In this document: one piece after another, positions 4,660 to 51,639 of the stretch
Numbering within the stretch: position 1 is the first letter of the stretch
How the letters are laid out: each line of letters starts with the position of its first letter
Assembly (NCBI GenBank): GCA_963768615.1
Contig: CAVYIE010000005.1
Coordinates: 343,821-407,820 of the forward strand
Source of the DNA: Candidatus Eiseniibacteriota bacterium
GTDB lineage: Bacteria > Eisenbacteria > RBG-16-71-46 > JABDJR01
Direction of reading: 5' to 3'
DNA length: 64,000 nucleotides
Made by a program: the position numbers and the translations under genes
The notes under the pieces: generated by a model
Seen by the model: only the letters and a program-made list of their open reading frames with translations
Told to the model about the DNA's origin: nothing
The model's database searches: none

Positions 4660-4740
4660 TTGACCGCCCTACCGCCCGCGGGTAATCTTTTGAACCGTTG
4701 TTCAGATTTTGAATGGTTATTCAAAGGAGTCTCTTTGTCC
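4660..4740 (+). promoter_or_regulatory. Putative sigma70-type promoter (TTGACC-18-TAATCT) followed by two adjacent palindromic operators, TGAACcgttGTTCA (4691-4704) and TTGAATggttATTCAA (4709-4724), immediately upstream of the TetR gene
   Basis: Perfect inverted repeats read directly from the sequence. This is the usual place for a TetR autoregulatory operator. Confidence 0.5.
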
Positions 4741-5397
4741 TCTGATTCCGCCGCCTCCCGCCGCGCCTCGCGCCGTACCGCGGCCCGGAAGAGCCAGCGC
4801 CGGGAGATCCTGGCCGCGGCGCTGGCCCTCTTCGCACGGAACGGATACGAGCGGACCTCGGTCCACGAGGTGGCGAAGCGGGCCGGGTTCAGCGTGGGCC
4901 ATCTCTACAACCTGATCGGCAACAAGCGCGCGCTCTACGATGCGGTGCTGATCCAGGAGGGAGAGGCGCTGCTGGAGGTGGTCCAGCGGGCGACGGCCCC
5001 CGCCGTGGGGCGGGGCCTCGACCGGGCCGACCGGATGATCGACGCCGTGCTCGACTTCTTCGCCGGGCACCGCGACTTCTTCCAGATCTTCCTGAACGAG
5101 ACCGGCGGCGTGCCCGAGACCGCCAACGCGCGGTTCAGCGAGGAGAGCCTCCGGCTGAAGCAGGCCATCGACGAGACCGCCCGCGCCGTGTTCGTCGACG
5201 GCGTGGCCGACGGCAGCTTCGTGGCCGTCGACCCGGACGAGATCCACGGCGTGGTCGGCAACGTGGTCAACGGATTCGTGGTCCGCTGGGTCCTGGCCGG
5301 CGGTCCTGGAGACCTTCGGGACAAGGCGGCGCTCATCCGGCGGATCCTCTGGCGGGGCATCGCCGACGACGACGCATCGAGGAGAAACGCTCAGTGA
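4735..5397 (+). CDS. TetR/AcrR family transcriptional regulator (likely repressor of the downstream RND efflux operon)
   Basis: HTH segment ILAAALALFARNGYERTSVHEVAKRAGFSVGHLYNLIGNKRALY. The tracked ORF start at 4660 coincides with the promoter/operators, so the TTG at 4735 (AAGGAG RBS at 4724-4729) is the more likely start. The stop overlaps the next gene (GTGA). Confidence 0.8.
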   Translation: MSSDSAASRRASRRTAARKSQRREILAAALALFARNGYERTSVHEVAKRAGFSVGHLYNLIGNKRALYDAVLIQEGEALLEVVQRATAPAVGRGLDRADRMIDAVLDFFAGHRDFFQIFLNETGGVPETANARFSEESLRLKQAIDETARAVFVDGVADGSFVAVDPDEIHGVVGNVVNGFVVRWVLAGGPGDLRDKAALIRRILWRGIADDDASRRNAQ

Positions 5398-6824
5398 AAG
5401 CACTCACCTTCCGCCCACCCCGGCGCCCGAGGATCCGGATCCCCGGCCTGCTCGCGCTCCTGGCCCCGATCCTCCTGGCCGCCGGCACCGCCGGCCCTGC
5501 CGGGGCTGCCGGAGCCGCCCCGGGAGACACCGCGGCGGCGGACACCCTGTATCTCTCCGTGGACGGCGCGGTGGACCTGGCCCTGAACCAGGGGGAGGCG
5601 GCCCAGCTCGCGCGCGAGGACGTGCGCATCGCCGAGGCCCAGAAGGGGGTGGTGCTGGCCAACGCCCTTCCCAAGCTGGATTTCAACGCCTCCTACAACC
5701 GCAATCTGAAGAAGCCGGTGATCTTCTTCCCCGACTCCACCGGCGGCTCCCAGTCCATCACCATCGGCGAGGACAACGCCTACCAGGCCACGCTGTCCCT
5801 CCGCCAGCCGCTCTACAGCTCCGGCCGGGTGGGAGCGGCCTACAGCGCCTCCAAGCAGCGGGCCCGGGCGGCGGCTCTGTCCGGCGACGCCGCCGCCTCG
5901 GACATCGCCATGCAGGTGAAGCAGGCCTACTACCAGGCCCTGCTCGCCCGGGCGCAGGTGAGGATCGCCCGGCAGTCCCTGGATCAGGCCCAGCGGCGGC
6001 AGGACGAGATCCAGGCCAAGGTGGACAAGGGGGTGACGGCGCGGTTCGACCTCCTGCGGGCCCAGGTAGAGGTGGCCAACCGGAAGCCGGCCCTGACCCG
6101 GGCCCGGAACGGGGCCGCGGTGGCCCTGGAGGCGCTGAAGCGGGCGGCGGGGCTCCCCCTGGATCGCGGGGTGGCCCTCACCGACACCCTCGGCTACCAG
6201 CCCATGCCGCTTACCCGGGAGGCGGCGGTGGAGGAGGCCCTCGACCACCGGCGTTCCCTGGAGGCGGCCAAGCTCCAGGCCGAGGCGGCCCGGAACCAGC
6301 TGAAGGCCCAGTCGGCCAACGACCTTCCCCTCCTCTACCTGGACGGCAACTACACCTGGCAGGGCCAGACCTCGGACGGGCTCATCCCCGGGAACAAGGA
6401 GACCGCCCAGAGCGCCGCGGTGGGACTGACCCTGACCTGGCCCATCGTGGACGGCTGGGAGAACAGGGCCCGCACCAGGCAGGCGGCGGCCCAGGCCGAG
6501 ATCGCCCGGTTGAACCTGAGACAGCTGGAGGAGGGGATCCGCCTCCAGACGCGGAGCGCCTGGGCCGACGTGCGCTCCATCGCCGAGGAGATCCAGGGGG
6601 TGGAGGAGTCGGTGCGGCTGGCCCGGGAGGCCTATCGGATCGCCGAGGTGCGCTACGACAGCGGCCTCTCCACCCAGCTCGAGCTCCTGGACGCCGAGCT
6701 GGCCCTGACCCAGGCCCGGGTGAACCGGAGCGAGACCCTGTACCGGTACCAGACCGCCCTGGCCCAGCTGGAGAACGTGATGGGACGCGGTCCGGCCCTG
6801 AATGCGACCGGAGGTGAGCGATGA
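5394..6824 (+). CDS. Outer membrane efflux protein (TolC/OMF family)
   Basis: 476 aa, signal peptide. OMF-family outer-membrane efflux channel signature. Translationally coupled to TetR upstream and the MFP downstream. Confidence 0.85.
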   Translation: MKALTFRPPRRPRIRIPGLLALLAPILLAAGTAGPAGAAGAAPGDTAAADTLYLSVDGAVDLALNQGEAAQLAREDVRIAEAQKGVVLANALPKLDFNASYNRNLKKPVIFFPDSTGGSQSITIGEDNAYQATLSLRQPLYSSGRVGAAYSASKQRARAAALSGDAAASDIAMQVKQAYYQALLARAQVRIARQSLDQAQRRQDEIQAKVDKGVTARFDLLRAQVEVANRKPALTRARNGAAVALEALKRAAGLPLDRGVALTDTLGYQPMPLTREAAVEEALDHRRSLEAAKLQAEAARNQLKAQSANDLPLLYLDGNYTWQGQTSDGLIPGNKETAQSAAVGLTLTWPIVDGWENRARTRQAAAQAEIARLNLRQLEEGIRLQTRSAWADVRSIAEEIQGVEESVRLAREAYRIAEVRYDSGLSTQLELLDAELALTQARVNRSETLYRYQTALAQLENVMGRGPALNATGGER

Positions 6825-8026
6825 AGAAGGTGTGGATCGGCGCGGCGGTGGTGGTCCTCGCGGTCCTGGTGTTCCTCCGCATCCAGGCCCGGAGCGAGAA
6901 GGCCCCGGCCCGGGGGATCGAGGAGATCCAGGCCGAGCAGGGGGTGCCGGTGGACGCGGTCACCCTGGCCCGCGACACCCTGGTGGTGACCCGGCAGGTG
7001 GCGGGCAACGTGGAGGGCCGGCGCCAGACCGACGTCAGCGCCGCCGGCGACCGCAAGGTGGACAAGGTCTTCGTGCGGGAGGGCCAACGGGTGGGCCGGG
7101 GGGACCGGCTCATCTCCTACGACATCCGTACCGCCCCCGACGCGGTGGCCCGGCTCCAGCAGAGCCAGGCCGCCTACGACAACGCCCAGCGCCAGGTGAA
7201 CCGGCTCCAGCCCCTCTACGAGCAGGGGGCGATCAGCGAGGCCGATCTGGACAACGCCAGGACCCAGCTCGAGGTGGCCCGGGCCAACCTGCGCGACGCC
7301 CGGCTCCAGGTGGAGGAAGTCTCGCCCATCGACGGCGTGGTCACCCTGGTCGCGGTCACCCCCGGGGAGTCCGTGACCGGAGGCCAGACCGTGGCCCAGG
7401 TGGCCACCCTGGACTCGGTGCGCGTGTCCGCCGAGGTCGCCGCGGATGCGGTGGCCCAGCTGCACACGGGGGCGAAGGTGCGGGTGGTTCCGGGCTCGTC
7501 CTCCGGCACCGAGGTGGAGCACCCCGCGGCCGGCGGCCCCGGGAACCCCGGCTACGAGGGCCGGTTGACCCGGGTCTCCCTGGGCGCCGACCCCGGCACC
7601 CGGCTCTACGAGGTGGAGGCGGTGCTGGCCAACCGGGACCGGAGCTTCCTGCCCGGCCAGTTCGTGACCTTGGCCGTGGTGACCCGGCGGATCGACGACG
7701 CCCTCAGCGTGCCCAGGATCGCCTTCCTCGGCGAGCAGGAGGTGGTGCCGGGGGCGGAGCAGGAGGTGTTCACGGTGGCCGACGGCACCGCCCATCGCCG
7801 CAAGGTCACCCTGGGCGCGGTCAACGAGGACCGGGCCCAGGTCACGGACGGCCTCCAGGCCGGCGACGTGGTGGTGGTGTTCGGGGCCAACCGGCTCCGG
7901 GAGGGGGACAAGGTGCGGTTCCACCGGCTGGACGGGAAGATGATGGAGGCCCCGGCGGCGTCCGGCGCGCCGGCCTCGGGACCCGGATCCCCCCAGGGGA
8001 CCGGTGAAGCGGGGGCCGGCCGGTGA
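6821..8026 (+). CDS. RND efflux membrane fusion protein (HlyD/AcrA family periplasmic adaptor)
   Basis: 401 aa. N-terminal TM/signal. Coiled-coil region (RLQQSQAAYDNAQRQVNRLQPLYEQGAISEADLDNARTQLEVARANL) typical of periplasmic adaptors. 4-nt overlaps on both sides. Confidence 0.85.
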   Translation: MKKVWIGAAVVVLAVLVFLRIQARSEKAPARGIEEIQAEQGVPVDAVTLARDTLVVTRQVAGNVEGRRQTDVSAAGDRKVDKVFVREGQRVGRGDRLISYDIRTAPDAVARLQQSQAAYDNAQRQVNRLQPLYEQGAISEADLDNARTQLEVARANLRDARLQVEEVSPIDGVVTLVAVTPGESVTGGQTVAQVATLDSVRVSAEVAADAVAQLHTGAKVRVVPGSSSGTEVEHPAAGGPGNPGYEGRLTRVSLGADPGTRLYEVEAVLANRDRSFLPGQFVTLAVVTRRIDDALSVPRIAFLGEQEVVPGAEQEVFTVADGTAHRRKVTLGAVNEDRAQVTDGLQAGDVVVVFGANRLREGDKVRFHRLDGKMMEAPAASGAPASGPGSPQGTGEAGAGR

Positions 8027-11000
8027 TCCTCTCCAAGATGGCGGTCCGCCGCCCCGTTCTCACCACCGTGATCGTGCTGATCTTCCTGGTCCTGGGGATC
8101 TTCGCCTACCTGCGGCTGGTGGTGGACCTCTTTCCCAACGTGGAGTTCCCCTACGTCACCGTGACCACGGTGTACCCGGGGGCGGGACCGGAGGAGGTGG
8201 AGAGCCAGGTCACCAAGAAGCTCGAGGACGCGGTCTCGACCCTGGCCAACATCAAGGAGATGACCTCCACCAACATCGAGGGGCTGTCCCTGGTCATCAT
8301 CCAGTTCGAGCTGGGGGTCGATCCCGACCTCGTGGCCATCGACGTCAAGGAGAAGGTGGACGCGGTGGTGAACGACCTGCCCGAAGACACCAAGAAGCCG
8401 GTGGTCGGGAAGTTCGACGTCAACGCGCTCCCCATCATGAACCTGGCCCTGACCGGGCCCCAGTCCGGGCGCGAGCTCTACCGGGTGGCCGACAAGCAGC
8501 TCAAGGACGAGCTCTCCCAGGCGCCGGGGGTGGCGTCGGTGAGCATCGTGGGCGGGAACGAGCGCGAGATCCACGTGGATGTGGACCCCGACAAGCTGGC
8601 CGCCTACGGTCTGGATGCCAACCAGGTGGTCTCGGCCATCGGCCGTGAGAACCTGAGCATCCCCGCCGGCCTGGTCCAGCGTCCCGATCAGGAGTACACG
8701 CTGCGGGTGCTGGGCGAGTTCACCCACCTGAACCAGCTCCGGCGGCTGCCGGTGAACCTGCCCGGGTCGGGACGGACGGTGCGCGTGGAGGACGTGGGCC
8801 GGGTGGTGGACAGCTCGGTGGAGCAGCGGAACCTGGCCGAGGCCGACGGCCGGAGCGCGGTCGCCCTGATCATCCAGAAACGGACCGACGCCAACACCGT
8901 GGAGACCGCCGGCGCGGTACGGAGCCGCGTGGCCGCGCTGAACCGGCAGCTTCCCGAGGGGATGAAGATCGAGGTCATCCGCGACAATTCGACCTTCATC
9001 CGCCAGGCCGTGCACGACGTGCTGGTCAACATCCTCATCGGCATCCTCCTCACCACCATCATCCTGTACCTGTTCCTGCACAACTTCCGCACCACCCTGA
9101 TCGCCGCGGTGGCCATGCCCACCTCCATCATCGCCACTTTCCTGCTCCTGGACTTCGCCGGGTTCACCATCAACGTGATGACCCTGCTCGCCCTGGGCAT
9201 CTCCATCGGGGTCCTGGTCACCAACGCCATCGTGGTCCTGGAGAACATCCAGAGCCACATCGACGTCCACGGGGAGGATCCGCCCACCGCGGCCCAGCGG
9301 GGCACGGACGAGATCGCCATCGCGGTGGCGGCCACCGCCGGTACCAACGTCGTGGTCTTCACTCCCATCGCGTTCATGGGCGGGATCGTGGGCCAGTTCT
9401 TCATCCAGTTCGGGCTCACCGTGGTCTTCGCCACCCTGTTCTCCCTCCTGATCAGCTTCACCCTGACCCCCATGCTGGCGGCCAAGGTCCTGAAGTCCAA
9501 GGAGGAGCAGGAGAAGCGGGTGGCCGGCCACCGGTGGTTCCTGGCCCGCCTGGAAAGGCCGTTTCTCAAGCTGGCCGGATTCTGGGAACAGGGATACCGC
9601 CGGGTGGAGGACGTCTACCGCCGGAGCGTAGCCTGGTCGCTGAAGCATCGGGCCTGGACGCTGGTCATCGTCACCCTGTTGTTCCTGACCAGCTTCGTTC
9701 CCTTCTTCTTCAGGCTGGTGGGGTCCGAGTTCCTCCCCCAGTCGGACGCCGGATTCATCCAGGTGGCGGTCACCCTGCCTGCGGGGAGCACCCTGGAGCA
9801 GACCCACGAGACCCTCACCGAGATCGAGGACATCGCGCGGGAGAGCGTTCCCGAGATCGAGGCCGTCCTCCTCACCGTGGGTGGAGACAACCAGGGGGTG
9901 GAGAAGGGCGACCTCACGATCCGGCTCACTCCCGCCGCCGACCGGAAGCGGGGGATCCAGCAGATCATGAACGATCTCCGCGTGCGTCTGGCCGGCCTTC
10001 CCGCCGCGGACATCCAGGTCCAGGTCGCCTCCCAGTTCGGGAGCGGCCAGCAGGACATCGAGGCCGACGTGCTCGGTCCGGACCTCGACACCATCCGTAC
10101 CATCGCCGACAGCCTCCAGAACGCCATGTCCGCGATCCCGGGACTGGTGGACGTCAGCTCCAGCGCCAAGCCCGGCAAGCCCGAGATCGTCTTCCGCCCC
10201 GACCGGGAAGAGATGTCCGACCGGATGCTGGCCCTGGCCGGGGTGGGGGGCGAGCTGCGCACGCTGTACGAAGGGACGGTGGCCTCCAAGTACCGCGAGG
10301 AGGGGGACGAATACGACATCCGGGTGCGCATGATGCCCTCCGACCGCAGCCGGCTCCAGTCCATCCCCCAGGTGCGCCTTTCGGGATCGAATGGCCTGGT
10401 GCCTCTGGACGCCCTCGGGGACCTGGGCCGCCGGCGGGGCCTGGCCGAGATCACCCGCAAGAACAAGGAGCGCATGGTCTCCGTCGGCGCCAACATCGGC
10501 TCGGGCAGCCTGGTCCAGAAGGTGAACGCCATCCAGGCCCGGGTGGCGGCCATGAACCTTCCCCCCGGCTACCGCGTGGAGTACGCGGGCCAGTACGAGG
10601 ATCTCGGGGACACCTTCGTGCAGATCCTCCAGGCCTTGATCCTGGCCATCGTGCTCACCTACCTGCTCCTGGCCGCGATCCTGGAGTCCTTCGTCCATCC
10701 CTTCACCATCATGTTCACCCTGCCCCTGGGCCTGGTGGGGGTGGTGTGGTCGCTGGTTCTGACCGGAGCCACCATCAACATCTTCTCCCTCATGGCGGTG
10801 GTGATGCTGGTGGGGATCGTGGTCAACAACGCGATCCTCATCCTGGACCTGGCCGGACAGCTCCGCGCCAAGGGGATGAACGCGAGGGAAGCGATCGCCG
10901 AGGCCGCCCCGGGCCGGCTCCGGCCCATCGTGATGACCACCCTGGCCATCCTGGCCGGCATCCTCCCCCAGGCCCTGGGCGGCGCCGGTGCGGCCTACAC

Positions 11001-11148
11001 CGTGGCCATGGCGGTGGTGACCATGGGAGGGATCCTGGCCTCCGGCGCGCTGTCGCTGTACCTGATCCCGGTTCTCTACACCCTGTTCGACCGGCTCACG
11101 GCGCAGGGACGCGCCGACCGGCGGAAGGCGAAGGAGGCCGGCGCCTAG
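8023..11148 (+). CDS. RND multidrug efflux transporter permease (HAE1/AcrB family)
   Basis: 1041 aa, 12-TM RND topology; start may be ATG 8038 (MAVRRPVLTTVIVLIFLVLGIFAY...). Confidence 0.9.
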   Translation: MILSKMAVRRPVLTTVIVLIFLVLGIFAYLRLVVDLFPNVEFPYVTVTTVYPGAGPEEVESQVTKKLEDAVSTLANIKEMTSTNIEGLSLVIIQFELGVDPDLVAIDVKEKVDAVVNDLPEDTKKPVVGKFDVNALPIMNLALTGPQSGRELYRVADKQLKDELSQAPGVASVSIVGGNEREIHVDVDPDKLAAYGLDANQVVSAIGRENLSIPAGLVQRPDQEYTLRVLGEFTHLNQLRRLPVNLPGSGRTVRVEDVGRVVDSSVEQRNLAEADGRSAVALIIQKRTDANTVETAGAVRSRVAALNRQLPEGMKIEVIRDNSTFIRQAVHDVLVNILIGILLTTIILYLFLHNFRTTLIAAVAMPTSIIATFLLLDFAGFTINVMTLLALGISIGVLVTNAIVVLENIQSHIDVHGEDPPTAAQRGTDEIAIAVAATAGTNVVVFTPIAFMGGIVGQFFIQFGLTVVFATLFSLLISFTLTPMLAAKVLKSKEEQEKRVAGHRWFLARLERPFLKLAGFWEQGYRRVEDVYRRSVAWSLKHRAWTLVIVTLLFLTSFVPFFFRLVGSEFLPQSDAGFIQVAVTLPAGSTLEQTHETLTEIEDIARESVPEIEAVLLTVGGDNQGVEKGDLTIRLTPAADRKRGIQQIMNDLRVRLAGLPAADIQVQVASQFGSGQQDIEADVLGPDLDTIRTIADSLQNAMSAIPGLVDVSSSAKPGKPEIVFRPDREEMSDRMLALAGVGGELRTLYEGTVASKYREEGDEYDIRVRMMPSDRSRLQSIPQVRLSGSNGLVPLDALGDLGRRRGLAEITRKNKERMVSVGANIGSGSLVQKVNAIQARVAAMNLPPGYRVEYAGQYEDLGDTFVQILQALILAIVLTYLLLAAILESFVHPFTIMFTLPLGLVGVVWSLVLTGATINIFSLMAVVMLVGIVVNNAILILDLAGQLRAKGMNAREAIAEAAPGRLRPIVMTTLAILAGILPQALGGAGAAYTVAMAVVTMGGILASGALSLYLIPVLYTLFDRLTAQGRADRRKAKEAGA

Positions 11149-11293
11149 ACGGGGGCCCGCTCCCCGACCACCGGGGGCGGGCCGTCCGCAGCAGGAATTG
11201 GCGCTGGGGAATCCGCCCCCGGCGTGCTTTAATGGCGGCACCCCATGCAGGCACCGAACCGGCCGCGCCCCGGCGGCCCAGGGAGGCTCTCCC

Positions 11294-12262
11294 ATGTACC
11301 GGCTCGCCCTCGTGGTCCTCGTCGCCCTCCTCGCCACGGCCCCGGCCTTACCCCGCCCCCTGTCCGCCCAGGAACCGGCCCTGGTCGATCTCTGGCCCAA
11401 CGGGGACGGCACGCAGTGGGAATACGCCTACAGCTACACCGAGGAGGCGTGGCTCGGCGGCTCCAGCGACGCCTCCTTCCCGGTCCGCTACAGCTTCGAC
11501 GGCATGTACCGGCTCCCGGATGGACGTTGGACCCAGAACCTGGCCGTGGCGGTCCCGGTTGTTTCCCCCGTTGCCCGCGAGGGGGCCTCCGCCGCCCCCG
11601 CCTCCCTCGGCGACCCCCTGCTCCGGACCCTGTGGCGGGTGCGCCCCGATCTCCGGCCCGGCCTGCTCCAGCGGGCGGCCGCCCTGGATGCGGGGGACTG
11701 CATCCGCGACGCGGCCCCGAACCTCAATGCCCTCCTCCTCCACGACGCCTGGTTCCTGAAGACGGAGGAAGAGATCGCGGCCTGGGGATGCGACCTCGAC
11801 TCGGGCGCCACCACGCTGAAGCGCTGGTTGTGGCTGACCGCCGACCTAGGCCTCGGCCACACCTTCGGCATGCAGCTCGTTCCCGACCTCGCCGACGACG
11901 TGTTCCTCCACGGAACCCCGGCGGCCTGGGAGGAGGTGTCCACCCTCGCCGGCACCTTCACCGGCTGCCTGCGGGTGGACTACGTGATCGACTACGGCAC
12001 CAGCCTCTGCACCGCGCCGGGGGAGACCGGGACCGGCAGCTACCGGGCCGAGACCCGGGGGTCCGTGTACTACGCCCCGGGGGTGGGACCGGTCTACAGC
12101 ACCGAGGAGTTCCTGCCCTTCCTGGACGTGACCGGCTCCTGCGACATCCCCGCCGAAGGGGTGGGCCAGGTGGCCTCGCGGACCACCCTCGATCTCACCC
12201 TGGTCGACGTGGTCCCGGCCCGGCGCACTTCCTGGGGCGCGCTCAAGTCACGGTACGAGTGA
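11294..12262 (+). CDS. Secreted hypothetical protein (322 aa) with signal peptide and the same C-terminal tag as 1054..1701 (...LVDVVPARRTSWGALKSRYE)
   Basis: Internal ATG 11294 gives MYRLALVVLVALLATAPALPRPLSAQEP (signal peptide). The body is not obviously similar to the 1054..1701 protein, but the last roughly 20 residues are. Confidence 0.6.
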   Translation: MYRLALVVLVALLATAPALPRPLSAQEPALVDLWPNGDGTQWEYAYSYTEEAWLGGSSDASFPVRYSFDGMYRLPDGRWTQNLAVAVPVVSPVAREGASAAPASLGDPLLRTLWRVRPDLRPGLLQRAAALDAGDCIRDAAPNLNALLLHDAWFLKTEEEIAAWGCDLDSGATTLKRWLWLTADLGLGHTFGMQLVPDLADDVFLHGTPAAWEEVSTLAGTFTGCLRVDYVIDYGTSLCTAPGETGTGSYRAETRGSVYYAPGVGPVYSTEEFLPFLDVTGSCDIPAEGVGQVASRTTLDLTLVDVVPARRTSWGALKSRYE

Positions 12263-14104
12263 CGCCGTCTCCGCCCAGCGGAGCCACTCGGCCAGCACGA
12301 CCAGGGTCCAGACCGCCCGGCTGTGGTCCGCGCGCCGGTGGGCATGCTCCTCGAACAGCTCCAGCGCCGCGCTCCGGTCGATGCCGGCCCGCTCCAGGGA
12401 CGGGTCACCCACCCGGTCCCGGGCCCAGTCGTGGAGATCCTCCCGGAGCCATTGGGCCAGGGGAACGGAGAGGCCCCGCTTGCGGCGGCGCACGATCCGG
12501 CGGGGGAGGTACCGCTCGGCGTAACCCTTGAGGAAGTGCTTGGTGGTGAAGCGCCGGACCCGGTCCCGGGGGGCGAGCCGGGCCGCGAACTCCATCACGT
12601 TCCGGTCCAGGTAGGGCGCCCGCAGCTCCAGGGCCGAACTCATGCTCGCGCGGTCGGCCTTGGTCAGGAGTCCCTCGGCCAGGGAGGTCTCCAGGTCGTG
12701 CCGCTGCACCGTGTCCAATAGCCGCGGCAGGGTATCCATCTCCGGTTCGGGGACCGCCACCCCGAGCCGCTCGAGAAGCGCGGGAGGGAGGTTCGAGGTC
12801 CAGAGCAGGTGGCGGTCGCCGCCGGCCATCTCCGCCCCGGCCACGAATTTCTTGAGCAGGAAGGAGATCGAGACCTTCTTGTCGCTCGGGGGCCAGGCCT
12901 CCACCATGCGGCGGACCGGAGCCTTGAACCAGCCGGGCAGGCCCGCGTAGCGCGCGCTCATCAGTGCGCCCAGGTAGGTCGGATAGCCGCCGAAGAGCTC
13001 GTCCGCCCCCTCCCCGACCAGGGCCACCTTGGCGTCCTCGGCCGCCCGGCGGGCCAGAAGGGCGGTGGGAATCCAGGCGGGATCGGCCAGGGGCTCTCCG
13101 ACCCGGGCGATGAGCCGGGGAAGCTCCACCTGGAAGTCCTCCGGCCGCACCCAGACCGGGACCTGGGGCAGCCCCAGGTGGCCGGCCACCGCGGCCGCCG
13201 CATCGCCCTCGTCGTAGGAGGCCTCGGAGAAGCGCAGGGTATAGGCGGGGAAGACGACCTGAGGGCGGACCGTGCGGGCCACCGCGGCCACCAGGGAGGA
13301 GTCGATCCCCCCGCTCAGGAACACCCCGAAGGGCACCTCGTTCTCGGTCTGGTGGAGAAGAACGTCCCGGAGCACCCGGTCGAACTCGTCCGCGGTGGGG
13401 GGCGGGCCCGCGGCGGCTCCCACCGGCCACCGCCACCACCGGTCCACGCGGGCCGTTTCCGAATCGTTTTCGAAGACCACCCGGTGGGCCGGGGGCACCT
13501 TGCGGACCCCGGAGAACGGTGACGCGGGGGCGGTGAAGCTGCCGAAGCGCAGGTACCCGGCCAGCGCCGCCCGGTCCACGGTGAGCGGGTCGAGACCCTT
13601 TCCGACCAGGGCGCAGATCTCGGTGGCGAAGGAGATCGTCTCGCCGCCGCGATGGTAGAAGAGGGGGCGCTCGCCGGCCCGGTCCCGGACCAGCAGCAGC
13701 CGGCGGCGGCGGGGATCGTGGAGGGCGATGGCGAAGGCGCCGGTCAGGGCCTCGGGGAAACGGTCGCCGAGCTCCAGGTAGAGCGCGGGAATGACGGCCA
13801 CGTCGGATTCGCCCCGCACCGCATGACCCCGTCCGGCCAGGAATTCGCGAAGCTCGCGGTGGTTGTCGATCTCGCCGTTGCAGATCACGGTGACGCCGCT
13901 TCCGGGATCGCTCACCGGTTGGGCGCCGCCGTTGAGACCGCGAATGGCCAGGCGGGTGATGCCCAGCACCGCTCCGTCCCGGCCTCCCACCCCGGTCTCG
14001 TCGGGACCCCGGTGGGCGAGGGCGGACATCATTCCCTGGACGCGGGCCCGGTCGCCCGCGACGGCGGGCCCGGCGTACCGGACCACACCGCAGACGCCGC
14101 ACAC
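12248..14104 (-). CDS. asnB: Asparagine synthetase (glutamine-hydrolysing), AsnB family
   Basis: N-terminal MCGVCGVV (Cys2 nucleophile of class-II glutamine amidotransferases), the AsnB-type SGGIDSS PP-loop, and the usual 618-aa length. Confidence 0.85.
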   Translation of the reverse strand: MCGVCGVVRYAGPAVAGDRARVQGMMSALAHRGPDETGVGGRDGAVLGITRLAIRGLNGGAQPVSDPGSGVTVICNGEIDNHRELREFLAGRGHAVRGESDVAVIPALYLELGDRFPEALTGAFAIALHDPRRRRLLLVRDRAGERPLFYHRGGETISFATEICALVGKGLDPLTVDRAALAGYLRFGSFTAPASPFSGVRKVPPAHRVVFENDSETARVDRWWRWPVGAAAGPPPTADEFDRVLRDVLLHQTENEVPFGVFLSGGIDSSLVAAVARTVRPQVVFPAYTLRFSEASYDEGDAAAAVAGHLGLPQVPVWVRPEDFQVELPRLIARVGEPLADPAWIPTALLARRAAEDAKVALVGEGADELFGGYPTYLGALMSARYAGLPGWFKAPVRRMVEAWPPSDKKVSISFLLKKFVAGAEMAGGDRHLLWTSNLPPALLERLGVAVPEPEMDTLPRLLDTVQRHDLETSLAEGLLTKADRASMSSALELRAPYLDRNVMEFAARLAPRDRVRRFTTKHFLKGYAERYLPRRIVRRRKRGLSVPLAQWLREDLHDWARDRVGDPSLERAGIDRSAALELFEEHAHRRADHSRAVWTLVVLAEWLRWAETASLVP

Positions 14105-14105
14105 G

Positions 14106-14966
14106 TCAGGCTCGCGGCTTGGCAGCCACCTCGGCGCATTCCAGGATGCGGTCGAGCCGGAAGTCGCGGTCCTCCTTGCGGAGATGGCAGTAGGCCCGCA
14201 TGTTCATGCCCCGGATGTCCTTGGGGGTGACGCGGCGGCGGGTCTGGCCCCCGCTTCCCCGGTAGGCGATCTCGATGTCGTGATGGGCCTCGATGGCCCG
14301 CCGGATATGCTCGACCACCAGGGAGAAGCTGTTGTCCTCGCCGCGGCCGGGGCCGCCGATGGAGAACTGGTAGGAGGTGCGATAGCCGGGGATGCGGGAG
14401 ATGTCGTCCTGGCCCCGCTTGTGGTACTCGTCCAGGAACTTGCGCAGCACGTGCCAGGCCATGCGGGCGTCGTCCAGCGCCCGGTGGGCGTGGGGCCCCT
14501 CGATGCCCATGCGGTTGGCCAGGATCCCCAGGGTGAACGGGCCGGGATCGTCCTGGGCCCGGGCCAGCTCCAGGGTGTCCATGACCGGGTTCCCGAGCTG
14601 GGTCCGGCCCAGCTTCTCCAGCTTGTACTGGAGGAAGGCCATGTCGAACTCGGCGTTGTGGGCCACGATGATGGCGTCGTCGAAGAGGGGCAGCACGTCC
14701 TCCACCAGGTCCTCGAACCGGGGCTTGCCCTTCAGCATCCCGGAGCTGATGCCGCTGACCTGGGCCGCGGCGGGATCCATCTCCCGCCCGGGGTCCACCA
14801 GCTCGCTGTACTCCCCGACGATCTCGCCTCCCTCCACCCTCACCAGGCCGATCTCCACGATCTCGTCCCCCACCGCCGGGTACAGGCCGGTGGTCTCGAA
14901 GTCGAGAACCGCGAAGGGCTTCTGAAGAAGGGGGTTGGGAAGGGCGCTGAAGAGATCGATGGACAT
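14106..14966 (-). CDS. DnaQ-like DEDDh 3'-5' exonuclease fused to a C-terminal WYL-like domain
   Basis: Exo motifs I (AVLDFETTGL), II (VAHNAEFDMAFL) and III (HRALDDARM). The C-terminal roughly 90 aa (IEIAYRGSGGQTRRRVTPKDIRGMNMRAYCHLRKEDRDFRLDRI) follow the WYL-domain pattern. 2-nt gap to asnB downstream (operon). Confidence 0.7.
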   Translation of the reverse strand: MSIDLFSALPNPLLQKPFAVLDFETTGLYPAVGDEIVEIGLVRVEGGEIVGEYSELVDPGREMDPAAAQVSGISSGMLKGKPRFEDLVEDVLPLFDDAIIVAHNAEFDMAFLQYKLEKLGRTQLGNPVMDTLELARAQDDPGPFTLGILANRMGIEGPHAHRALDDARMAWHVLRKFLDEYHKRGQDDISRIPGYRTSYQFSIGGPGRGEDNSFSLVVEHIRRAIEAHHDIEIAYRGSGGQTRRRVTPKDIRGMNMRAYCHLRKEDRDFRLDRILECAEVAAKPRA

Positions 14967-15112
14967 GAGGGTTTCCTTGGACGTGCAGGACGGGACTTGG
15001 GCGACGTTCCATTCTAGCCCACCGGGGAGGGCGGGGAAAGCCCGGCCCCGCGGCGGCCGGCCGCCCGGGTGGTATACTTCCCGGCCCGGACCCGACCATC
15101 GAGGACCCAGCC

Positions 15113-15496
15113 ATGTTCGAGATCACCAAGACCGCCGAGTTCGCCGCCGCCCACTCCCTGCGGGACTACGACGGCCCCTGCGCCCGGAACCACGGCCACA
15201 ACTACAGGTTGGAGCTGACCGTCCGCGGCGGGGTGCTGGACGACCAGCGCATGCTGATCGACTTCACCGCCCTGGACCGGGTGCTCGGCCCCTTCCTGGA
15301 GCGGGTGGACCATCGCAACCTGAACGAGGTCCCCCCCTTCACCGAGGTGAACCCCACCGCGGAGGCGGTGGCGGCCTGGATCCACGCCGAGCTGGCCCGG
15401 GAGATCGGCGCCGCCTCGGGGGGGCGGGCCCGCCTGACCGCGGTCCGGCTGTGGGAAACTCCCGACGCCTGTGTTACGTATACCCCCGACGACTGA
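15113..15496 (+). CDS. queD: 6-carboxy-5,6,7,8-tetrahydropterin synthase (QueD / PTPS family)
   Basis: 127 aa. CxxxHGH motif context (CARNHGHNYRLE) and QueD-like length. Confidence 0.9.
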   Translation: MFEITKTAEFAAAHSLRDYDGPCARNHGHNYRLELTVRGGVLDDQRMLIDFTALDRVLGPFLERVDHRNLNEVPPFTEVNPTAEAVAAWIHAELAREIGAASGGRARLTAVRLWETPDACVTYTPDD

Positions 15497-15589: not shown

Positions 15590-16726
15590 ATGAGAGCCAT
15601 GTCGAATCCCCTGCCTCGCCTCCGGCGTCCGGCGCGCGCCGTCCGGCTCCCGGTCCTGGCCGGCGCGCTCCTCGCCCTCGCCGGCTGCGGCGGCGGGGAC
15701 GCCTCGCCGGAAGCCGCCGCCGACACCACCGCCGCCGTCGTGGTCCCGGTGGCCGTCCACGTCCTGGCCGCCGGTCCGGCCACGGCCTCGATCCGGGCCT
15801 GGGGCACGGTGGAGCCGGTCCGCCAGGCCCGCATCCTCTCCGAGGTCTCGGGCCGGGTGGCCTCCACCGGAGCCGGGCTGGGGGACCGGGTGGAGGCGGG
15901 CCGGGTGCTGCTCGAAATCGACCCCGGTCTCCACGATGCCCGGGTCCGTGAATCCGAGGCCTCGACGCGCAGCGCGGCCCTCGCCCTGGAGAAGGCGGAG
16001 CGGGACCTCGACCGCGCCCAGGCCCTCTACGACGAGGGCTCCATTTCCGACAGCGAGCTGGAGGCGGCCCGGACCGCCGGGGCCCAGGCCGAAGCGTCCG
16101 CCGCGTCGGCCGAGGCCTCCCTGGCCCAGGCCCGCAAGAACCTGGCCGCGGCCCGGCTGCGCGCCCCCTTCGCCGGCGAACTGGCCTCGCGGCTCCCCGA
16201 CCCCGGCACCAGCGTGAGCCTCGGCTCGCCCCTGGCCATCCTGGTGGACATCGACCGGGTGCGGGTGGAGGCGGCGGTCTCGGAGGAGGACCTGGCCCAC
16301 GTGGCCCGGGGCGGCGCCGCCACCCTCACCGCCGGCGGGGTGCCGGGCTCTCCCGTCTCCGGCGTCGTGACCGCGGTCGGCCCCCAGGCCGACCCCGAGA
16401 GCGGGCAGTTCCCGGTGGTGATCGAGGCCGAGAACCCGGCCGGCCATCCCCTCCGGGGGGGGATGGTGGTCCGGTGCGAGATCGTCTACGCCAGCTACGA
16501 CTCGATCCCCCTCCTGCCGGTGGACGCCCTCATCGACGCCGAGGGTGAGGACGCCTTCTACGTGGTCCGGAACGGCCGGGCGGAGCGGCGGACGGCCAGT
16601 CTCGGCCCCCGCCGGGACCAGATGGCGGCGGTCCTGGCCGGGGCGGCGGTGGGGGACTCGGTGGTGGTCCTGGGCCAGGTGCGGCTGGCCGACGGGGCGC
16701 CGGTGCGGGTGGAAGAGGTGCGGTGA
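15590..16726 (+). CDS. RND efflux membrane fusion protein (lipoprotein, HlyD family)
   Basis: Signal peptide with lipobox-like LALAGCGG; coiled-coil hairpin and beta-barrel regions; 4-nt overlap with the downstream RND pump. Confidence 0.85.
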   Translation: MRAMSNPLPRLRRPARAVRLPVLAGALLALAGCGGGDASPEAAADTTAAVVVPVAVHVLAAGPATASIRAWGTVEPVRQARILSEVSGRVASTGAGLGDRVEAGRVLLEIDPGLHDARVRESEASTRSAALALEKAERDLDRAQALYDEGSISDSELEAARTAGAQAEASAASAEASLAQARKNLAAARLRAPFAGELASRLPDPGTSVSLGSPLAILVDIDRVRVEAAVSEEDLAHVARGGAATLTAGGVPGSPVSGVVTAVGPQADPESGQFPVVIEAENPAGHPLRGGMVVRCEIVYASYDSIPLLPVDALIDAEGEDAFYVVRNGRAERRTASLGPRRDQMAAVLAGAAVGDSVVVLGQVRLADGAPVRVEEVR

Positions 16727-19700: not shown

Positions 19701-19872
19701 CCTCACCGCCAGCTCGATTCTGTCGCTGTTCCTGATTCCCTGCCTGTACCTGGGACTGGGGGACCTGAAGCGGGCGACCCTCCGCCGCAGCCTGGCCGAG
19801 GAGCGCCAGCGCTGGCGGGCGCGCACCGCCCGCCGCGCCGAGGTCGCCTCGGTGGACCGGGGGCGGGAGTAG
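16723..19872 (+). CDS. RND efflux transporter permease (AcrB/AcrD/AcrF-like)
   Basis: 1049 aa, RND topology with two large periplasmic loops. No cognate OMF gene is adjacent. Confidence 0.9.
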   Translation: MMSPPRLSVSNPVLVNLVMVAIVGFGLFSLATLPQEQIPNVSFPWAFVVVIDNGVSPEEIEKTITVPMEDELQNVDDLNAMTSISREGGAFVWLKFETMPEDDFQLRLQDVRAAVNKVRLPESAEEPDVSQFKTQDFAPLVGVVITGDLPEHRMKEIAEDLRDDILDIPKVSQVQISGVREREVWVEADPARLERFGLSLEQVALAIRNKHLNRTAGDLRTGRMDYRVRTVGEAEQVAELRNVIVHASSGGALVRVGDVARVSDTFHEEETRSRFNGSPSVTLTVSKKQDGHSIGIVKEIKALAGTYRDTRLPPGAGITFTNDSSDFIREILSTLKTNAWMGMLLVAVSLFLFLGWRQAVFAVVGIPVALALTFTFLRFTGNTINGSSLFGLVLVLGMLVDDAIVVIENSFRYMELGMPARQAAVVGTREVMLPVLTSAGTTMAAFLPLMLLPGVIGDFMQIIPAVVSMALLASLFESFFILPSHIAEWSGRRRRSERPPVDFSGVRHLYRRLLARAIRRRYWVLGATTLLLLATLPLAFAVGVDMFADEEVPFFFVYVTMPEGTRLDATDAVLTRVEAIARESIPAGDLKHVRTVAGLQETEGEWIVKPSVGQVVVELRDKDERSSEVEDLMNRMRDEARWVPGIESLEFHRVSSGPPTGAPVEVKVRGDHLDELSATAEEVKAALAGIEGVKDIRDDFLAATPELRVKVDEEKAAMYGLDVAGVAATVHAAFQGRVATQFLEGDDDIDVLVRLDEASRSERRDLADLTVVTPTGRRLYLKDVAAIREEAGYATIKHDEKRRAITVTANVDKAVVTGVEANNRLMDAWPAISLRHPGYDLRFGGEFEEFKEAFTNLGLLFLMGVAIMLVIMAAQFNSITQPLIIFMAVVFAFWGAVLGLFLIRSPFSVNNLFGLVALAGVAVNNSIVLISFVNTLRERGASRLRAVLRAGNLRVRPILLTSVTTILGLLPMALGLGGYSEVWGPLAVVMVFGLTASSILSLFLIPCLYLGLGDLKRATLRRSLAEERQRWRARTARRAEVASVDRGRE

Positions 19873-50957: not shown

Positions 50958-50958
50958 G

Positions 50959-51612: not shown

Positions 51613-51623
51613 GGGTTCGACGA

Positions 51624-51639
51624 CGTTTCACGTGAAACA
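51624..51639. promoter_or_regulatory. parS centromere site (cGTTTCACGTGAAACa, 15/16 to consensus tGTTTCACGTGAAACa)
   Basis: Palindrome read from the sequence 12 bp after the rsmG stop. Confidence 0.8.

What the first reader, a model, noticed from the sequence alone, without database searches (positions are those of the whole stretch)
12248..14966. DEDDh exonuclease-WYL fusion co-transcribed with an AsnB-type amidotransferase
The 286-aa protein at 14106..14966 has all three DnaQ/DEDDh exonuclease motifs, then a C-terminal roughly 90-aa segment that fits the WYL ligand-sensing domain pattern (I.Y....T.R.V.P......AYCHLR...R.FRLDRI; the W-Y-L triad itself is N-M-R here). Its stop is 2 nt from the start of a 618-aa class-II glutamine amidotransferase / asparagine-synthetase gene, so the two are almost certainly one operon. 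It sits between an efflux operon and queD, not in a nucleotide-metabolism context. I know WYL domains chiefly as ligand sensors on regulators and helicases of defence or DNA-damage systems; I am not aware of a characterised fusion to a proof-reading-type nuclease. An AsnB paralogue as the partner is unexplained. It could be a small-molecule-gated nuclease, which would be a defence or signalling module, or simply a DNA-repair exonuclease with a regulatory domain.
Basis: partly seen in the sequence, partly recalled or inferred. Interest (0 to 1): 0.6.

Follow-up and report, generated by a model that had tools for sequence, protein, structure and literature searches.

The report
Exonuclease-WYL fusion; AsnB neighbour is incidental
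The gene really encodes a proofreading-type 3'-5' exonuclease fused to a WYL nucleic-acid-binding domain, but it belongs to a large, already catalogued and still uncharacterised chromosomal family, and its tight link to the asparagine-synthetase-like gene occurs only in this genome, so it is not a two-gene module.

Summary
ORF 14106..14966(-) has a complete DEDDh exonuclease domain (Pfam RNase_T, E=1e-31) and a true C-terminal WYL domain. The WYL call rests on Pfam (32 bits, cut-off 21.8), a profile match to PafBC (E=5.5e-20) and a predicted Sm-like fold whose best PDB matches are CapW, PafBC, BrxR and DriD. An AsnB-type amidotransferase gene starts 1 nt after its stop.

The "module" interpretation is not supported. 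None of about 8 close lineages (67-85% identity) and none of 9 distant lineages has AsnB next to the exonuclease. The closest AsnB homologues, in three lineages and at least two phyla, instead lie 1 nt downstream of a PMT-type glycosyltransferase. The neighbour conserved in the close clade is queD, head to head.

Contexts elsewhere are mixed and not defence islands. No full-length copy was found in 50,697 phage or 72,556 plasmid records. The window is origin-proximal chromosome (mnmG-rsmG-parA-parB).

The fusion was listed in 2014 (Makarova et al.) but I found no characterisation.

Most likely function: a stand-alone 3'-5' ssDNA exonuclease whose WYL domain binds single-stranded DNA, as a tether or a switch. 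AsnB is a lineage-specific passenger on its transcript. Interest is modest.

The parts
14106..14966 (-). exo-WYL gene (286 aa): DEDDh 3'-5' exonuclease fused to a C-terminal WYL domain
   Evidence: ORF; Pfam RNase_T and WYL. 119 of the top 120 homologues carry the same C-terminal region. The full-length AF2 model has pLDDT 86 and pTM 0.76.
14448..14909 (-). DEDDh/DnaQ-like exonuclease domain (residues 20-173); catalytic D22, E24, D108, H161, D166
   Evidence: Pfam RNase_T E=1.1e-31. Catalytic residues are invariant in A1. phmmer: T. maritima PolC exonuclease domain 2p1j E=2.2e-35; also epsilon, DinG-exo and ExoX. Foldseek: PolC 9qpc/9qrn first, epsilon 2ido TMt 0.86 at rmsd 1.8, 2p1j 41% identity.
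14328..14447 (-). Inter-domain linker (residues 174-213), partly low-confidence
   Evidence: pLDDT falls to about 53 around residues 201-210. Length varies between clades.
14130..14327 (-). WYL (Sm-like) domain, residues 214-279: helix plus five strands. Invariant Y235 (beta1), R244, C260, F269-R270-x-D272-R273 (beta4/beta5 loop)
   Evidence: Pfam and PADLOC WYL hits. Profile against PDB. Fold search. Conserved columns. The equivalent residues are essential in PafBC (PMC6789036).
14967..15112 (.). Divergent queD / exo-WYL intergenic region. It holds the promoter-like pair TTTCCC (15034..15039) - 17 nt - TAGAAT (15011..15016) and the Shine-Dalgarno-like AAGGAA (14973..14978), all on the - strand
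   Evidence: Sequence. The GTTTCC...CTA(G/A)(A/G)AT pattern and the AAAGGA ribosome-binding site align in 4 orthologous upstream regions. The consensus sigma-70 scan found nothing, so the promoter is inferred, not shown.
14104..14108 (-). Stop/start junction TGA-c-G(TG): one base between the exo-WYL stop and the AsnB GTG start
   Evidence: The same TGA-N-(G/A)TG-TGC-GG junction follows the PMT gene in L092 and L093.
12248..14104 (-). AsnB-type glutamine amidotransferase / asparagine-synthetase-family gene (618 aa). It is adjacent to exo-WYL only in this lineage and is not part of a conserved exo-WYL system
   Evidence: Pfam and NCBIfam. N-terminal MCG and the PP-loop FLSGGIDSS are visible in the translation. 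Homologues share 55-69% identity across phyla. It is PMT-linked elsewhere.
11198..12262 (+). Uncharacterised secreted-looking ORF (354 aa as the longest ORF; called as 322 aa from MYRLALVV... in L090). It is convergent with AsnB, with a 15-nt overlap. Together with AsnB it is the extra DNA relative to the orthologous loci
   Evidence: No Pfam, NCBIfam or PADLOC hit. Gene call. Absent from all other loci.
15113..15496 (+). queD (6-carboxytetrahydropterin synthase): the neighbour that is actually conserved, head to head, in the close clade
   Evidence: PTPS E=5.7e-39; TIGR03367 92.8 bits against a cut-off of 89.25. Found upstream of exo-WYL in L001, L003, L085, L087, L101, L102, L103, L104 and L106.

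Best explanation
ORF 14106..14966(-) is a member of a large bacterial family of roughly 270-290 aa stand-alone enzymes. An N-terminal DnaQ/PolC-type DEDDh 3'-5' exonuclease is joined by a short linker to a single WYL (Sm-like) domain.

Shown:
- Both domains are present, and the catalytic residues and the WYL ligand-site residues are intact.
- The family has a constant architecture.
- Members are chromosomal and usually flanked by unrelated genes.

Inferred mechanism: the WYL domain binds single-stranded nucleic acid, most likely ssDNA, through the conserved beta1 Tyr and the beta4/beta5 F-R-x-x-R loop. It then either tethers the nuclease to 3' ssDNA tails, as the WYL domain of T. elfii Pif1 helps its helicase, or acts as an ssDNA-responsive switch, as in DriD, PafBC and CapW. 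The enzyme would trim or degrade ssDNA 3' ends during DNA repair or maintenance.

The AsnB gene is not a functional partner. In this lineage a block carrying AsnB and a secreted-protein ORF sits between exo-WYL and the neighbouring efflux operon. AsnB is therefore probably read from the exo-WYL promoter and translationally coupled to it, but it belongs to a separate, widely conserved family whose usual upstream partner is a PMT-type (GT-C) glycosyltransferase.
For: Domains and residues.

Nearest sequence and structure relatives of the nuclease are DNA exonucleases. T. maritima PolC exonuclease domain: phmmer E=2.2e-35, and 41% identity in the Foldseek alignment. Pol III epsilon: TMt 0.86. Also DinG-exo and ExoX.

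WYL ligand-site residues are conserved: Y235, R244, F269, R270 and R273 are invariant. The same positions are essential in PafBC (PMC6789036). By their spacing they appear to correspond to the ssDNA-contacting Tyr and Arg residues of DriD (PMC9186387). The WYL domain of Pif1 binds ssDNA and stimulates the helicase (cited in PMC6789036).

Family size and constancy: 119 of 120 top hits have both domains. About 136 of the best 150 representatives at 50% identity are full-length at 260-330 aa, and the 150th still scores E=1e-64.

AsnB is not linked:
- No AsnB lies within the sequenced flanks of any other exo-WYL locus.
- The orthologous blocks TetR-OEP-MFP-RND | exo-WYL | queD in L085 and L001 lack AsnB and the ORF.
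- PMT lies 1 nt upstream of AsnB in L092, L093 and L094-96.

The gene has its own conserved promoter-like and RBS elements.

It is not mobile: mnmG-rsmG-parA-parB lie in the window, and there is no full-length phage, plasmid or viral-structure match.
Against: - No biochemical data exist for any family member, so substrate (DNA or RNA) and the role of the WYL domain are inferred by homology.
- This clade has lost the WYL-triplet Tyr, which matters in PafBC and contacts a phosphate in DriD, so binding may be weaker or different.
- Characterised WYL proteins use additional elements (linker, WCX or dimer domain) for ssDNA binding, and these are absent here.
- No LexA-box-like palindrome or other DNA-damage signal was seen upstream.
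- The neighbours conserved in the clade are queD and queE, which are RNA-modification genes, not repair genes.
- The 1-nt coupling to AsnB does mean the two are probably co-expressed in this organism, so a local, recently acquired functional tie cannot be excluded.
Confidence: 0.6

Rival explanations
1. RNA-directed enzyme. The protein is a 3'-5' exoribonuclease (RNase T / oligoribonuclease-like) whose Sm-like WYL domain binds single-stranded RNA. It would act in tRNA or small-RNA 3'-end trimming or turnover. That would fit its conserved head-to-head position with the tRNA-modification genes queD and queE.
For: - Makarova et al. 2014 labelled the fused domain a '3'->5' exoRNase' (PMC4012209).
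- The Pfam family is RNase_T, and the DEDDh clan includes RNases; ERI-1/3'hExo and RNase T appear lower in the fold list.
- The WYL fold is Sm-like, and Hfq appears among the fold hits.
- Per Mueller et al. 2019, WYL-domain proteins stimulate RNA cleavage by Cas13d (PMC6789036).
- queD is adjacent in 9 of 9 close lineages with upstream sequence, with queE beside it in several.
Against: - The best matches by a wide margin are DNA proofreading or repair exonucleases: PolC-exo E=2.2e-35, DinG-exo, epsilon and ExoX. RNase T first appears at Foldseek rank 39.
- DriD prefers ssDNA over ssRNA (PMC9186387).
- The queD link is absent from all 9 distant lineages, and other genes (Omp85, GT87) can sit between the two. 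It may simply be inherited synteny.
Confidence: 0.2
2. First reader's main idea. exo-WYL plus AsnB form a functional two-gene defence or signalling module, with a nuclease gated by a small molecule (perhaps one made or modified by the amidotransferase).
For: - A 1-nt stop/start spacing on the same strand.
- PADLOC domain-level hits to a cas-associated DEDDh, to cas-associated WYL models and to the candidate system PDC-S48.
- One distant homologue (L005) lies next to a restriction-modification pair.
Against: - The pair is seen only in this organism (window and L090). It is absent from about 8 close and 9 distant lineages.
- AsnB's conserved partner is a PMT glycosyltransferase.
- The PDC-S48 match covers only 166 of 512 profile positions.
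- AsnB has no PADLOC hit.
- No phage or plasmid copies were found.
- The locus is in a core, origin-proximal region.
- The WYL ligands reported in the papers read here are ssDNA, plus weaker ssRNA binding, not small molecules.
Confidence: 0.04
3. Replicative proofreading subunit. The protein is this lineage's DnaQ (Pol III epsilon) equivalent, as JGI annotations suggest, with the WYL domain replacing the epsilon C-terminal alpha-binding tail.
For: - Annotated 'DNA polymerase III epsilon subunit' by JGI for many homologues.
- Fold nearly identical to E. coli epsilon (TMt 0.86, rmsd 1.8).
- TIGR00573 'dnaq' subfamily-domain model passed (101 bits against a cut-off of 71.5).
Against: - The epsilon equivalog models are far below cut-off: TIGR01406 107 bits against 222.7; NF004316 107.2 against 196.
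- The region after the nuclease is a WYL domain, not the epsilon clamp-binding and alpha-binding segment. That E. coli epsilon carries such a segment is my own knowledge.
- The gene is never seen next to replication genes in the sampled loci.
Confidence: 0.08

Closest known systems
Bacterial Pif1 helicases with a C-terminal WYL domain (Thermotoga elfii Pif1; PDB 8bnv/8bns 'AAA ATPase' chains)
   Same: An enzyme acting on DNA carries a single C-terminal WYL domain without HTH or WCX. The WYL profile of this family hits 8bnv at E=1.2e-13, with the same Y...R...C...FR(L/I)DRI pattern. In Pif1 the WYL domain binds ssDNA and stimulates the enzyme (cited in PMC6789036). This is the best analogy for how the protein works.
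   Different: The catalytic module is a DEDDh exonuclease rather than an SF1B helicase. No biochemical data exist for the exonuclease fusion.
wHTH-WYL-WCX transcription factors (PafBC, DriD, CapW, BrxR)
   Same: Homologous WYL domain: profile E down to 5.5e-20, and these are the top Foldseek hits (TMq 0.72-0.80). The beta1 Tyr and beta4/beta5 F-R-x-x-R residues needed for PafBC function are conserved, as, by spacing, are the DriD ssDNA-contact Tyr and Arg residues.
   Different: No HTH, no WCX or dimerisation domain, and no transcription-factor role. The output is a fused nuclease. This clade lacks the WYL-triplet Tyr.
DnaQ-family DEDDh DNA exonucleases (PolC exonuclease domain, Pol III epsilon, DinG N-terminal exonuclease, ExoX)
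   Same: Same fold and the same five catalytic residues: 41% identity to the T. maritima PolC exonuclease domain in the Foldseek alignment, and rmsd 1.8 A to epsilon.
   Different: It is stand-alone, not part of a polymerase or helicase. It carries a WYL domain in place of the epsilon C-terminal tail. It falls below all NCBIfam equivalog cut-offs.
'WYL + 3'->5' exoRNase' architecture listed by Makarova, Anantharaman, Grishin, Koonin & Aravind 2014 (PMC4012209)
   Same: Apparently the same domain combination. That paper also describes the conservation pattern seen here, basic residues plus a frequent Cys (compare R244, C260, R270, R273).
   Different: It is only a catalogue entry, in a supplementary file I could not inspect. 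There it is interpreted in a defence and ligand-sensing frame, which the contexts found here do not support.
AsnB-family amidotransferases encoded downstream of PMT/ArnT-like GT-C glycosyltransferases (L092, L093, L094)
   Same: The window AsnB is 61-69% identical to these and has the same TGA-N-(G/A)TG-TGC junction to the upstream gene.
   Different: In the window the upstream gene is exo-WYL, not a PMT gene. No PMT homologue exists in the 64 kb.

Membership tests
DEDDh / DnaQ-like 3'-5' exonuclease superfamily (Pfam RNase_T PF00929) | Profile match above the curated cut-off | tested here: met
   111 bits against a cut-off of 24, E=1.1e-31, residues 20-173.
DEDDh / DnaQ-like 3'-5' exonuclease superfamily (Pfam RNase_T PF00929) | Exo I D-x-E, Exo II D, Exo III H-x4-D catalytic residues | tested here: met
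   D22, E24, D108, H161 and D166 are invariant in 19 homologues.
DEDDh / DnaQ-like 3'-5' exonuclease superfamily (Pfam RNase_T PF00929) | RNase H-like exonuclease fold | tested here: met
   AF2 model with pLDDT 86. Foldseek to E. coli epsilon 2ido gives TMt 0.86, rmsd 1.8 A.
DEDDh / DnaQ-like 3'-5' exonuclease superfamily (Pfam RNase_T PF00929) | Metal-dependent 3'-5' exonuclease activity | not testable with these tools
   Needs a nuclease assay.
WYL domain (PF13280; Sm-like fold) | Profile match above the curated cut-off | tested here: met
   32.1 bits against 21.8. PADLOC WYL models at 8.9e-11 and 6.6e-8. Family profile against the PafBC WYL domain, E=5.5e-20.
WYL domain (PF13280; Sm-like fold) | N-terminal helix plus a five-stranded bent beta-sheet (Sm-like / SH3-like barrel) | tested here: met
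   Model elements H5-23, E27-33, E36-48, E51-56, E61-66, E70-75. The top 28 PDB hits are WYL domains, followed by Hfq.
WYL domain (PF13280; Sm-like fold) | Conserved basic residues plus a frequent Cys lining the ligand groove; beta1 Tyr and the beta4/beta5 F-R-x-x-R loop | tested here: met
   Y235, R244, C260, F269, R270 and R273 are invariant. Pattern as described in PMC4012209 and PMC6789036.
WYL domain (PF13280; Sm-like fold) | Eponymous W-Y-L triplet (Tyr on beta3) | tested here: not met
   The window clade has a 4-residue deletion (GMN----MRAYC). Distant family members keep Y-L. The triplet is known to be poorly conserved family-wide (PMC4012209), so this does not exclude membership.
WYL domain (PF13280; Sm-like fold) | Binds single-stranded nucleic acid | not testable with these tools
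   Needs EMSA or fluorescence polarisation with ssDNA and ssRNA.
wHTH-WYL-WCX regulators (PafBC / DriD / CapW / BrxR) | N-terminal winged HTH DNA-binding domain and C-terminal WCX or dimerisation domain | tested here: not met
   No HTH or WCX hit. The protein ends 7 residues after the WYL domain, and its N-terminus is the exonuclease.
DNA polymerase III epsilon subunit (DnaQ proper) | Equivalog model above cut-off, with the C-terminal alpha-binding segment | tested here: not met
   TIGR01406 scores 107 against 222.7; NF004316 scores 107.2 against 196. The C-terminus is a WYL domain.
PADLOC candidate defence system PDC-S48 | Full-length match to the 512-position (or 411-position) model | tested here: not met
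   Only profile positions 17-182 of 512, the exonuclease domain, are matched.
Conserved exo-WYL / AsnB operon (the proposed module) | Adjacency of the two genes in independent lineages | tested here: not met
   None of about 8 close lineages with at least 1.3 kb of downstream sequence (L001, L003, L085/L100, L087, L102-L105) and none of 9 distant lineages has it. AsnB tblastn hits occur only in L090 (same organism) and in the PMT-linked loci.
Asparagine synthase (glutamine-hydrolysing), AsnB family (TIGR01536) | Model above cut-off; N-terminal nucleophile Cys2; PP-loop SGGxDS | tested here: met
   343 bits against 267. M-C-G start. FLSGGIDSS in the translation.
Asparagine synthase (glutamine-hydrolysing), AsnB family (TIGR01536) | Actually makes asparagine, i.e. 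is the housekeeping asnB of the genome | not testable with these tools
   Only 64 kb is available, with one AsnB in the window. The PMT linkage of its closest relatives suggests a possible envelope-related amidation role instead; this is inference.
XrtA/PEP-CTERM system amidotransferase (TIGR03108) | Model above cut-off | tested here: not met
   354 bits against a cut-off of 816.9.

The most novel reading that the evidence does not exclude
The WYL domain is not just a tether but an allosteric ssDNA (or damaged-nucleic-acid) sensor that switches the fused exonuclease on. That would make this widespread family the first example of a WYL domain directly gating a nuclease, and a LexA-independent, post-translational DNA-damage effector. 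A more speculative variant: the strictly conserved head-to-head arrangement with queD/queE in this clade reflects a functional tie to 7-deazaguanine (queuosine or preQ0) metabolism of nucleic acids.
Probability: 0.2. Interest if true: 0.55.

Novelty: new member of a known kind. Interest (0 to 1): 0.3.

Why it matters
WYL domains have recently been shown to be ssDNA sensors in regulators of the DNA-damage response and of phage defence. Almost all of that work is on HTH-containing transcription factors. This exonuclease-WYL family has hundreds of clusters at 50% identity and a fixed architecture, spans phyla including Chloroflexota, Thermodesulfobacteriota and Eisenbacteria, and lies on chromosomes. 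It is a simple system for asking whether a WYL domain can directly control an enzyme.

For annotation, two cautions follow. A 1-nt gene junction is not evidence of a functional module. These proteins should also not be called 'DNA polymerase III epsilon subunit'.

The by-product may interest envelope biologists more than the original finding does: a PMT-type glycosyltransferase and an AsnB-like amidotransferase form a tightly coupled pair that is conserved across phyla.

Tried and rejected
1. Conserved exo-WYL/AsnB operon. I looked from both sides, using look-up of encoding contigs on five exo-WYL homologues with retrievable contigs and three AsnB homologues, a genome scan and a metagenome scan. 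It was rejected.
2. Defence-island context. PADLOC gave only domain-level hits. Neighbours of 9 distant homologues were scanned with Pfam; only L005 sits by an R-M pair. Phage, plasmid and viral-structure searches found only the exonuclease domain.
Only 6 of 80 loci were full-length exo-WYL, and no close relative was returned.
4. Exact look-up of the window's exo-WYL protein (P0001) and of P0074 found no record. The rest of the 415-kb source contig could therefore not be read, and the question 'only asnB in the genome?' stays open.
5. I looked for a LexA-box-like palindrome, a riboswitch or a shared regulatory element in the queD/exo-WYL intergenic region. Only promoter-like and RBS-like conservation was seen. 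There were no Rfam hits in the whole window and no tRNAs. The consensus sigma-70/terminator scan was uninformative in this 71% GC DNA.
6. Literature. No paper in the searchable library characterises an exonuclease-WYL fusion. The main text and held supplements of Mueller et al. 2019 do not list it.
7. The afdb50 fold library was unavailable.
8. Foreign origin of the insert. GC3 of AsnB (0.908) and the adjacent ORF (0.913) is slightly below that of the neighbours (0.94-0.97). This is too weak to call horizontal transfer.

Full report
**What is there.**

The window has about 71% GC. On the minus strand, ORF 14106..14966 encodes a 286-aa protein and ORF 12248..14104 a 618-aa protein. The junction reads GCC-TGA-c-GTG-TGC-GGC. 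One base separates the stop of the first gene from the GTG start of the second, and the second product begins M-C-G.

The first protein matches two Pfam families:
- RNase_T (PF00929), residues 20-173, E=1.1e-31.
- WYL (PF13280), residues 218-276, E=1.2e-7, 32.1 bits against a gathering score of 21.8.

The second protein matches GATase_6/GATase_7 plus Asn_synthase (E=3.6e-77). It passes the NCBIfam asparagine-synthase model TIGR01536 (343 bits against 267). It fails the XrtA/PEP-CTERM amidotransferase model (354 against 817).

queD lies head to head at 15113..15496. An RND efflux operon (TetR-OEP-MFP-RND, 4660..11148) lies on the other side. Between that operon and AsnB sits an unannotatable ORF with a signal-peptide-like start (11198..12262).

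**Is the WYL call solid?**

Yes, on three independent lines.

1. Sequence conservation. In an alignment of 19 homologues at 35-85% identity, the nuclease residues D22, E24, D108, H161 and D166 are invariant. So are Y235, R244, C260, F269, R270 and R273 in the C-terminal part.
2. Profile search. A profile built only from the C-terminal roughly 82 residues of 28 family members hits the WYL domains of solved structures:
   - PafBC, E=5.5e-20
   - a Pif1-like chain (8bnv), E=1.2e-13
   - PafC, CapW, BrxR and DriD
3. Predicted fold. AlphaFold2 models of the whole protein (pLDDT 86, pTM 0.76) and of the C-terminus alone (pLDDT 84) give one helix followed by five strands. The Foldseek PDB hits of the isolated C-terminus are, in order, CapW, PafBC, BrxR and DriD, and only then Hfq.

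The conserved residues match what the literature says about the ligand site. Makarova et al. 2014 describe conserved basic residues plus a frequent Cys (PMC4012209). Mueller et al. 2019 show that the beta1 Tyr and the beta4/beta5 Phe and two Arg are needed for PafBC function (PMC6789036).

One canonical element is missing. The Tyr of the W-Y-L triplet is removed in this clade by a 4-residue deletion. More distant family members keep Y-L.

**What kind of nuclease?**

The nearest sequence and fold relatives are DNA exonucleases:
- T. maritima PolC exonuclease domain (phmmer E=2.2e-35; 41% identity in the Foldseek alignment)
- PolC
- a Streptococcus DnaQ domain
- the S. aureus DinG N-terminal exonuclease
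- E. coli epsilon (TM 0.86, rmsd 1.8 A)
- ExoX

RNases of the same clan rank far lower. All NCBIfam equivalog models, including those for Pol III epsilon, are well below cut-off. The protein is therefore not epsilon proper.

**How common is the fusion?**

Very common.
- 119 of the 120 best database hits carry the same C-terminal region.
- In an exhaustive profile search of 1.84 billion representatives at 50% identity, about 136 of the best 150 are full-length two-domain proteins of roughly 260-330 aa. The 150th still scores E=1e-64.
- Named sources include Candidatus Eisenbacteria (67% identity, probably the window's phylum), Anaerolineae, Chloroflexia, Candidatus Leptofilum and Thermodesulfobacteriota. 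The genome scan adds Myxococcota, Chlorobiaceae and Armatimonadota.
- All carry generic names ('exonuclease domain-containing protein', 'WYL domain-containing protein', 'DNA polymerase III epsilon').

Makarova et al. 2014 already list WYL combined with a '3'->5' exoRNase' among WYL architectures. I found no paper that characterises such a protein.

**Is AsnB a partner?**

No.

From the exo-WYL side:
- I obtained loci for close orthologues at 85% (L085/L086, L100), 80% (L001/L002 and L087-L089), 75% (L101), 72% (L106), 71% (L003/L004), 69% (L102, L103) and 67% (L104, L105).
- I also obtained nine distant lineages: L005, L006, L007, L029, L037, L053, L091, L097 and one more.
- tblastn with the window AsnB against all 179 fetched loci hits only L090 and the loci fetched with AsnB itself. 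L090 is a short contig that appears to come from the same organism (exo-WYL fragment 100% and AsnB 99.8% identical).
- The closest loci keep the same large-scale order as the window: TetR-OEP-MFP-RND, then exo-WYL, then queD and a second MFP-RND pair. In them the exo-WYL stop is followed directly by the convergent RND gene. Compared with them, the window carries about 2.9 kb of extra DNA holding AsnB and the secreted-protein ORF.

From the AsnB side:
- The family is highly conserved, at 55-69% identity across Gemmatimonadota, Acidobacteriota, Verrucomicrobiota and Methylobacter.
- In three lineages AsnB lies exactly 1 nt downstream of a 569-575-aa PMT/PMT_2 (GT-C) glycosyltransferase gene. These are two at 68-69% identity, one from the same assembly as an exo-WYL orthologue, and a Gemmatimonadales one at 61%.
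- The junction TGA-N-(G/A)TG-TGC-GG is the same as in the window.
- There is no PMT homologue and no second AsnB in the 64 kb.

The simplest reading is that AsnB, a gene that depends on translational coupling to whatever lies upstream, has been relocated or duplicated behind exo-WYL in this lineage. The two are probably co-expressed here. That co-expression is a local accident, not a system.

**What is conserved next to exo-WYL?**

In the close clade the conserved neighbour is queD. It lies head to head in every lineage for which upstream sequence exists: L001, L003, L085, L087, L101, L102, L103, L104 and L106. queE is often beside it. Two lineages have another gene (Omp85 or GT87) inserted between the two.

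The region immediately upstream of exo-WYL keeps a TTTCCC-N17-TA(G/A)(A/G)AT pattern and an AAAGGA ribosome-binding site in four lineages. So the gene has its own promoter-like signals.

The queD link disappears in all distant lineages. Their neighbours are unrelated to one another:
- a methyltransferase and a CfrBI-like R-M pair
- YjeF
- GH3 and MoaA
- glycosyltransferases
- shikimate kinase
- a PolB-exo-like exonuclease
- PCMT and AMMECR1
- a PMT_2 gene

This is the pattern of a stand-alone housekeeping-type gene, not of a defence island. Three further results agree:
- No phage record (of 50,697) and no plasmid record (of 72,556) holds a match covering 80% or more of the protein. No predicted viral structure matches beyond the exonuclease domain.
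- The window also carries mnmG-rsmG-parA-parB, so it is origin-proximal core chromosome.
- PADLOC hits are to domain models, and only to the first third of the candidate system PDC-S48.

**Mechanism proposed.**

Shown: an intact DEDDh active site of the DNA-proofreading type; an intact WYL nucleic-acid-binding surface, minus the triplet Tyr; and a fixed two-domain architecture with a short linker.

Established elsewhere:
- The WYL domains of DriD, CapW and PafBC bind ssDNA with little sequence specificity, through the beta1 Tyr and the Arg residues of beta2 and the beta4/beta5 loop (PMC9186387; PMC11662680; PMC11804915).
- The WYL domain of T. elfii Pif1 binds ssDNA and stimulates the helicase (cited in PMC6789036).

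Inferred: in exo-WYL the WYL domain holds single-stranded DNA. It either increases the affinity or processivity of the nuclease on 3' tails, or makes the nuclease responsive to ssDNA that accumulates after damage. I put this at about 0.6.

The main rival, at about 0.2, is an RNA-directed enzyme. This fits the Sm-like fold, the 2014 'exoRNase' label and the queD/queE neighbourhood. It is disfavoured by the much stronger similarity to DNA exonucleases.

**Novelty and verdict.**

The eye-catching part, a nuclease-sensor fusion wired to an amidotransferase, dissolves on comparison with relatives.

What remains is one more member of a widespread, catalogued but biochemically untouched family. The label is 'new member of a known kind', and interest is about 0.3. 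The residual interest lies in the family as a test case for direct enzyme control by a WYL domain.

Two by-products are also worth noting: the cross-phylum PMT-AsnB gene pair, and the clade-wide queD/exo-WYL head-to-head arrangement.

Noticed in passing
L092:4272-7863, L093:4272-7842, L094:3290-6866 (and L095, L096): A 569-575-aa PMT/PMT_2 (GT-C, ArnT-like) glycosyltransferase gene is followed after exactly 1 nt by the AsnB-family gene. This holds in two Eisenbacteria-like lineages and in Gemmatimonadales. It looks like a tightly coupled, cross-phylum gene pair of unknown function, possibly in envelope glycoconjugate amidation.
   Followed up: partly
window 14967-15496; L001, L003, L085, L087, L101-L104, L106: queD lies head to head with exo-WYL in all nine close lineages with upstream sequence, often with queE beside it. 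The downstream flanks differ, and other genes (Omp85, GT87) can be inserted between the two. The link is absent in the distant lineages. No preQ1 riboswitch was found in the window.
   Followed up: partly
window 48957-54942: mnmG (gidA)-like ORF (inferred from size and position only, not scanned), rsmG (gidB), parA and parB in a row. This suggests that the window lies next to the chromosomal replication origin.
   Followed up: partly
window 4660-11148 and 15590-19872: Two separate RND efflux systems flank the locus: TetR-OEP-MFP-RND on one side, MFP-RND between queD and queE on the other. The same arrangement is kept in the orthologous locus L085.
   Followed up: partly
window 11198-12262 (+): ORF with a signal-peptide-like start (MYRLALVVLVALLATAPALP...) and no hit in Pfam, NCBIfam or PADLOC. 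Its 3' end overlaps that of AsnB by 15 nt. It is present only in this organism among the loci fetched, and its GC3 (0.913), like that of AsnB (0.908), is slightly below its neighbours' (0.94-0.97).
   Followed up: partly
L037:3855-5338 (uncultured Chlorobiaceae): A PolB-exo2-like predicted 3'-5' exonuclease gene sits directly upstream of the exo-WYL gene and slightly overlaps it. That puts two different exonucleases in tandem.
   Followed up: no
L005:7977-11315 (Chloroflexia MAG): In this one lineage the exo-WYL gene is convergent with a CfrBI-like restriction endonuclease and an N4/N6 DNA methyltransferase. It is the only defence-type neighbour seen.
   Followed up: no
proteins P0280, P0301 (442-446 aa); P0241, P0320, P0347 (1045-1631 aa): Some family representatives are exo-WYL with about 160 extra C-terminal residues. 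A few very long proteins contain several exonuclease-like stretches. These are architecture variants that might hint at function.
   Followed up: no
window 14190-14215 (residues about 251-259 of exo-WYL): The window's clade has a 4-residue deletion in the beta2/beta3 hairpin that removes the Tyr of the W-Y-L triplet. In PafBC and DriD that Tyr contributes to function or to phosphate contact. More distant family members retain Y-L.
   Followed up: partly
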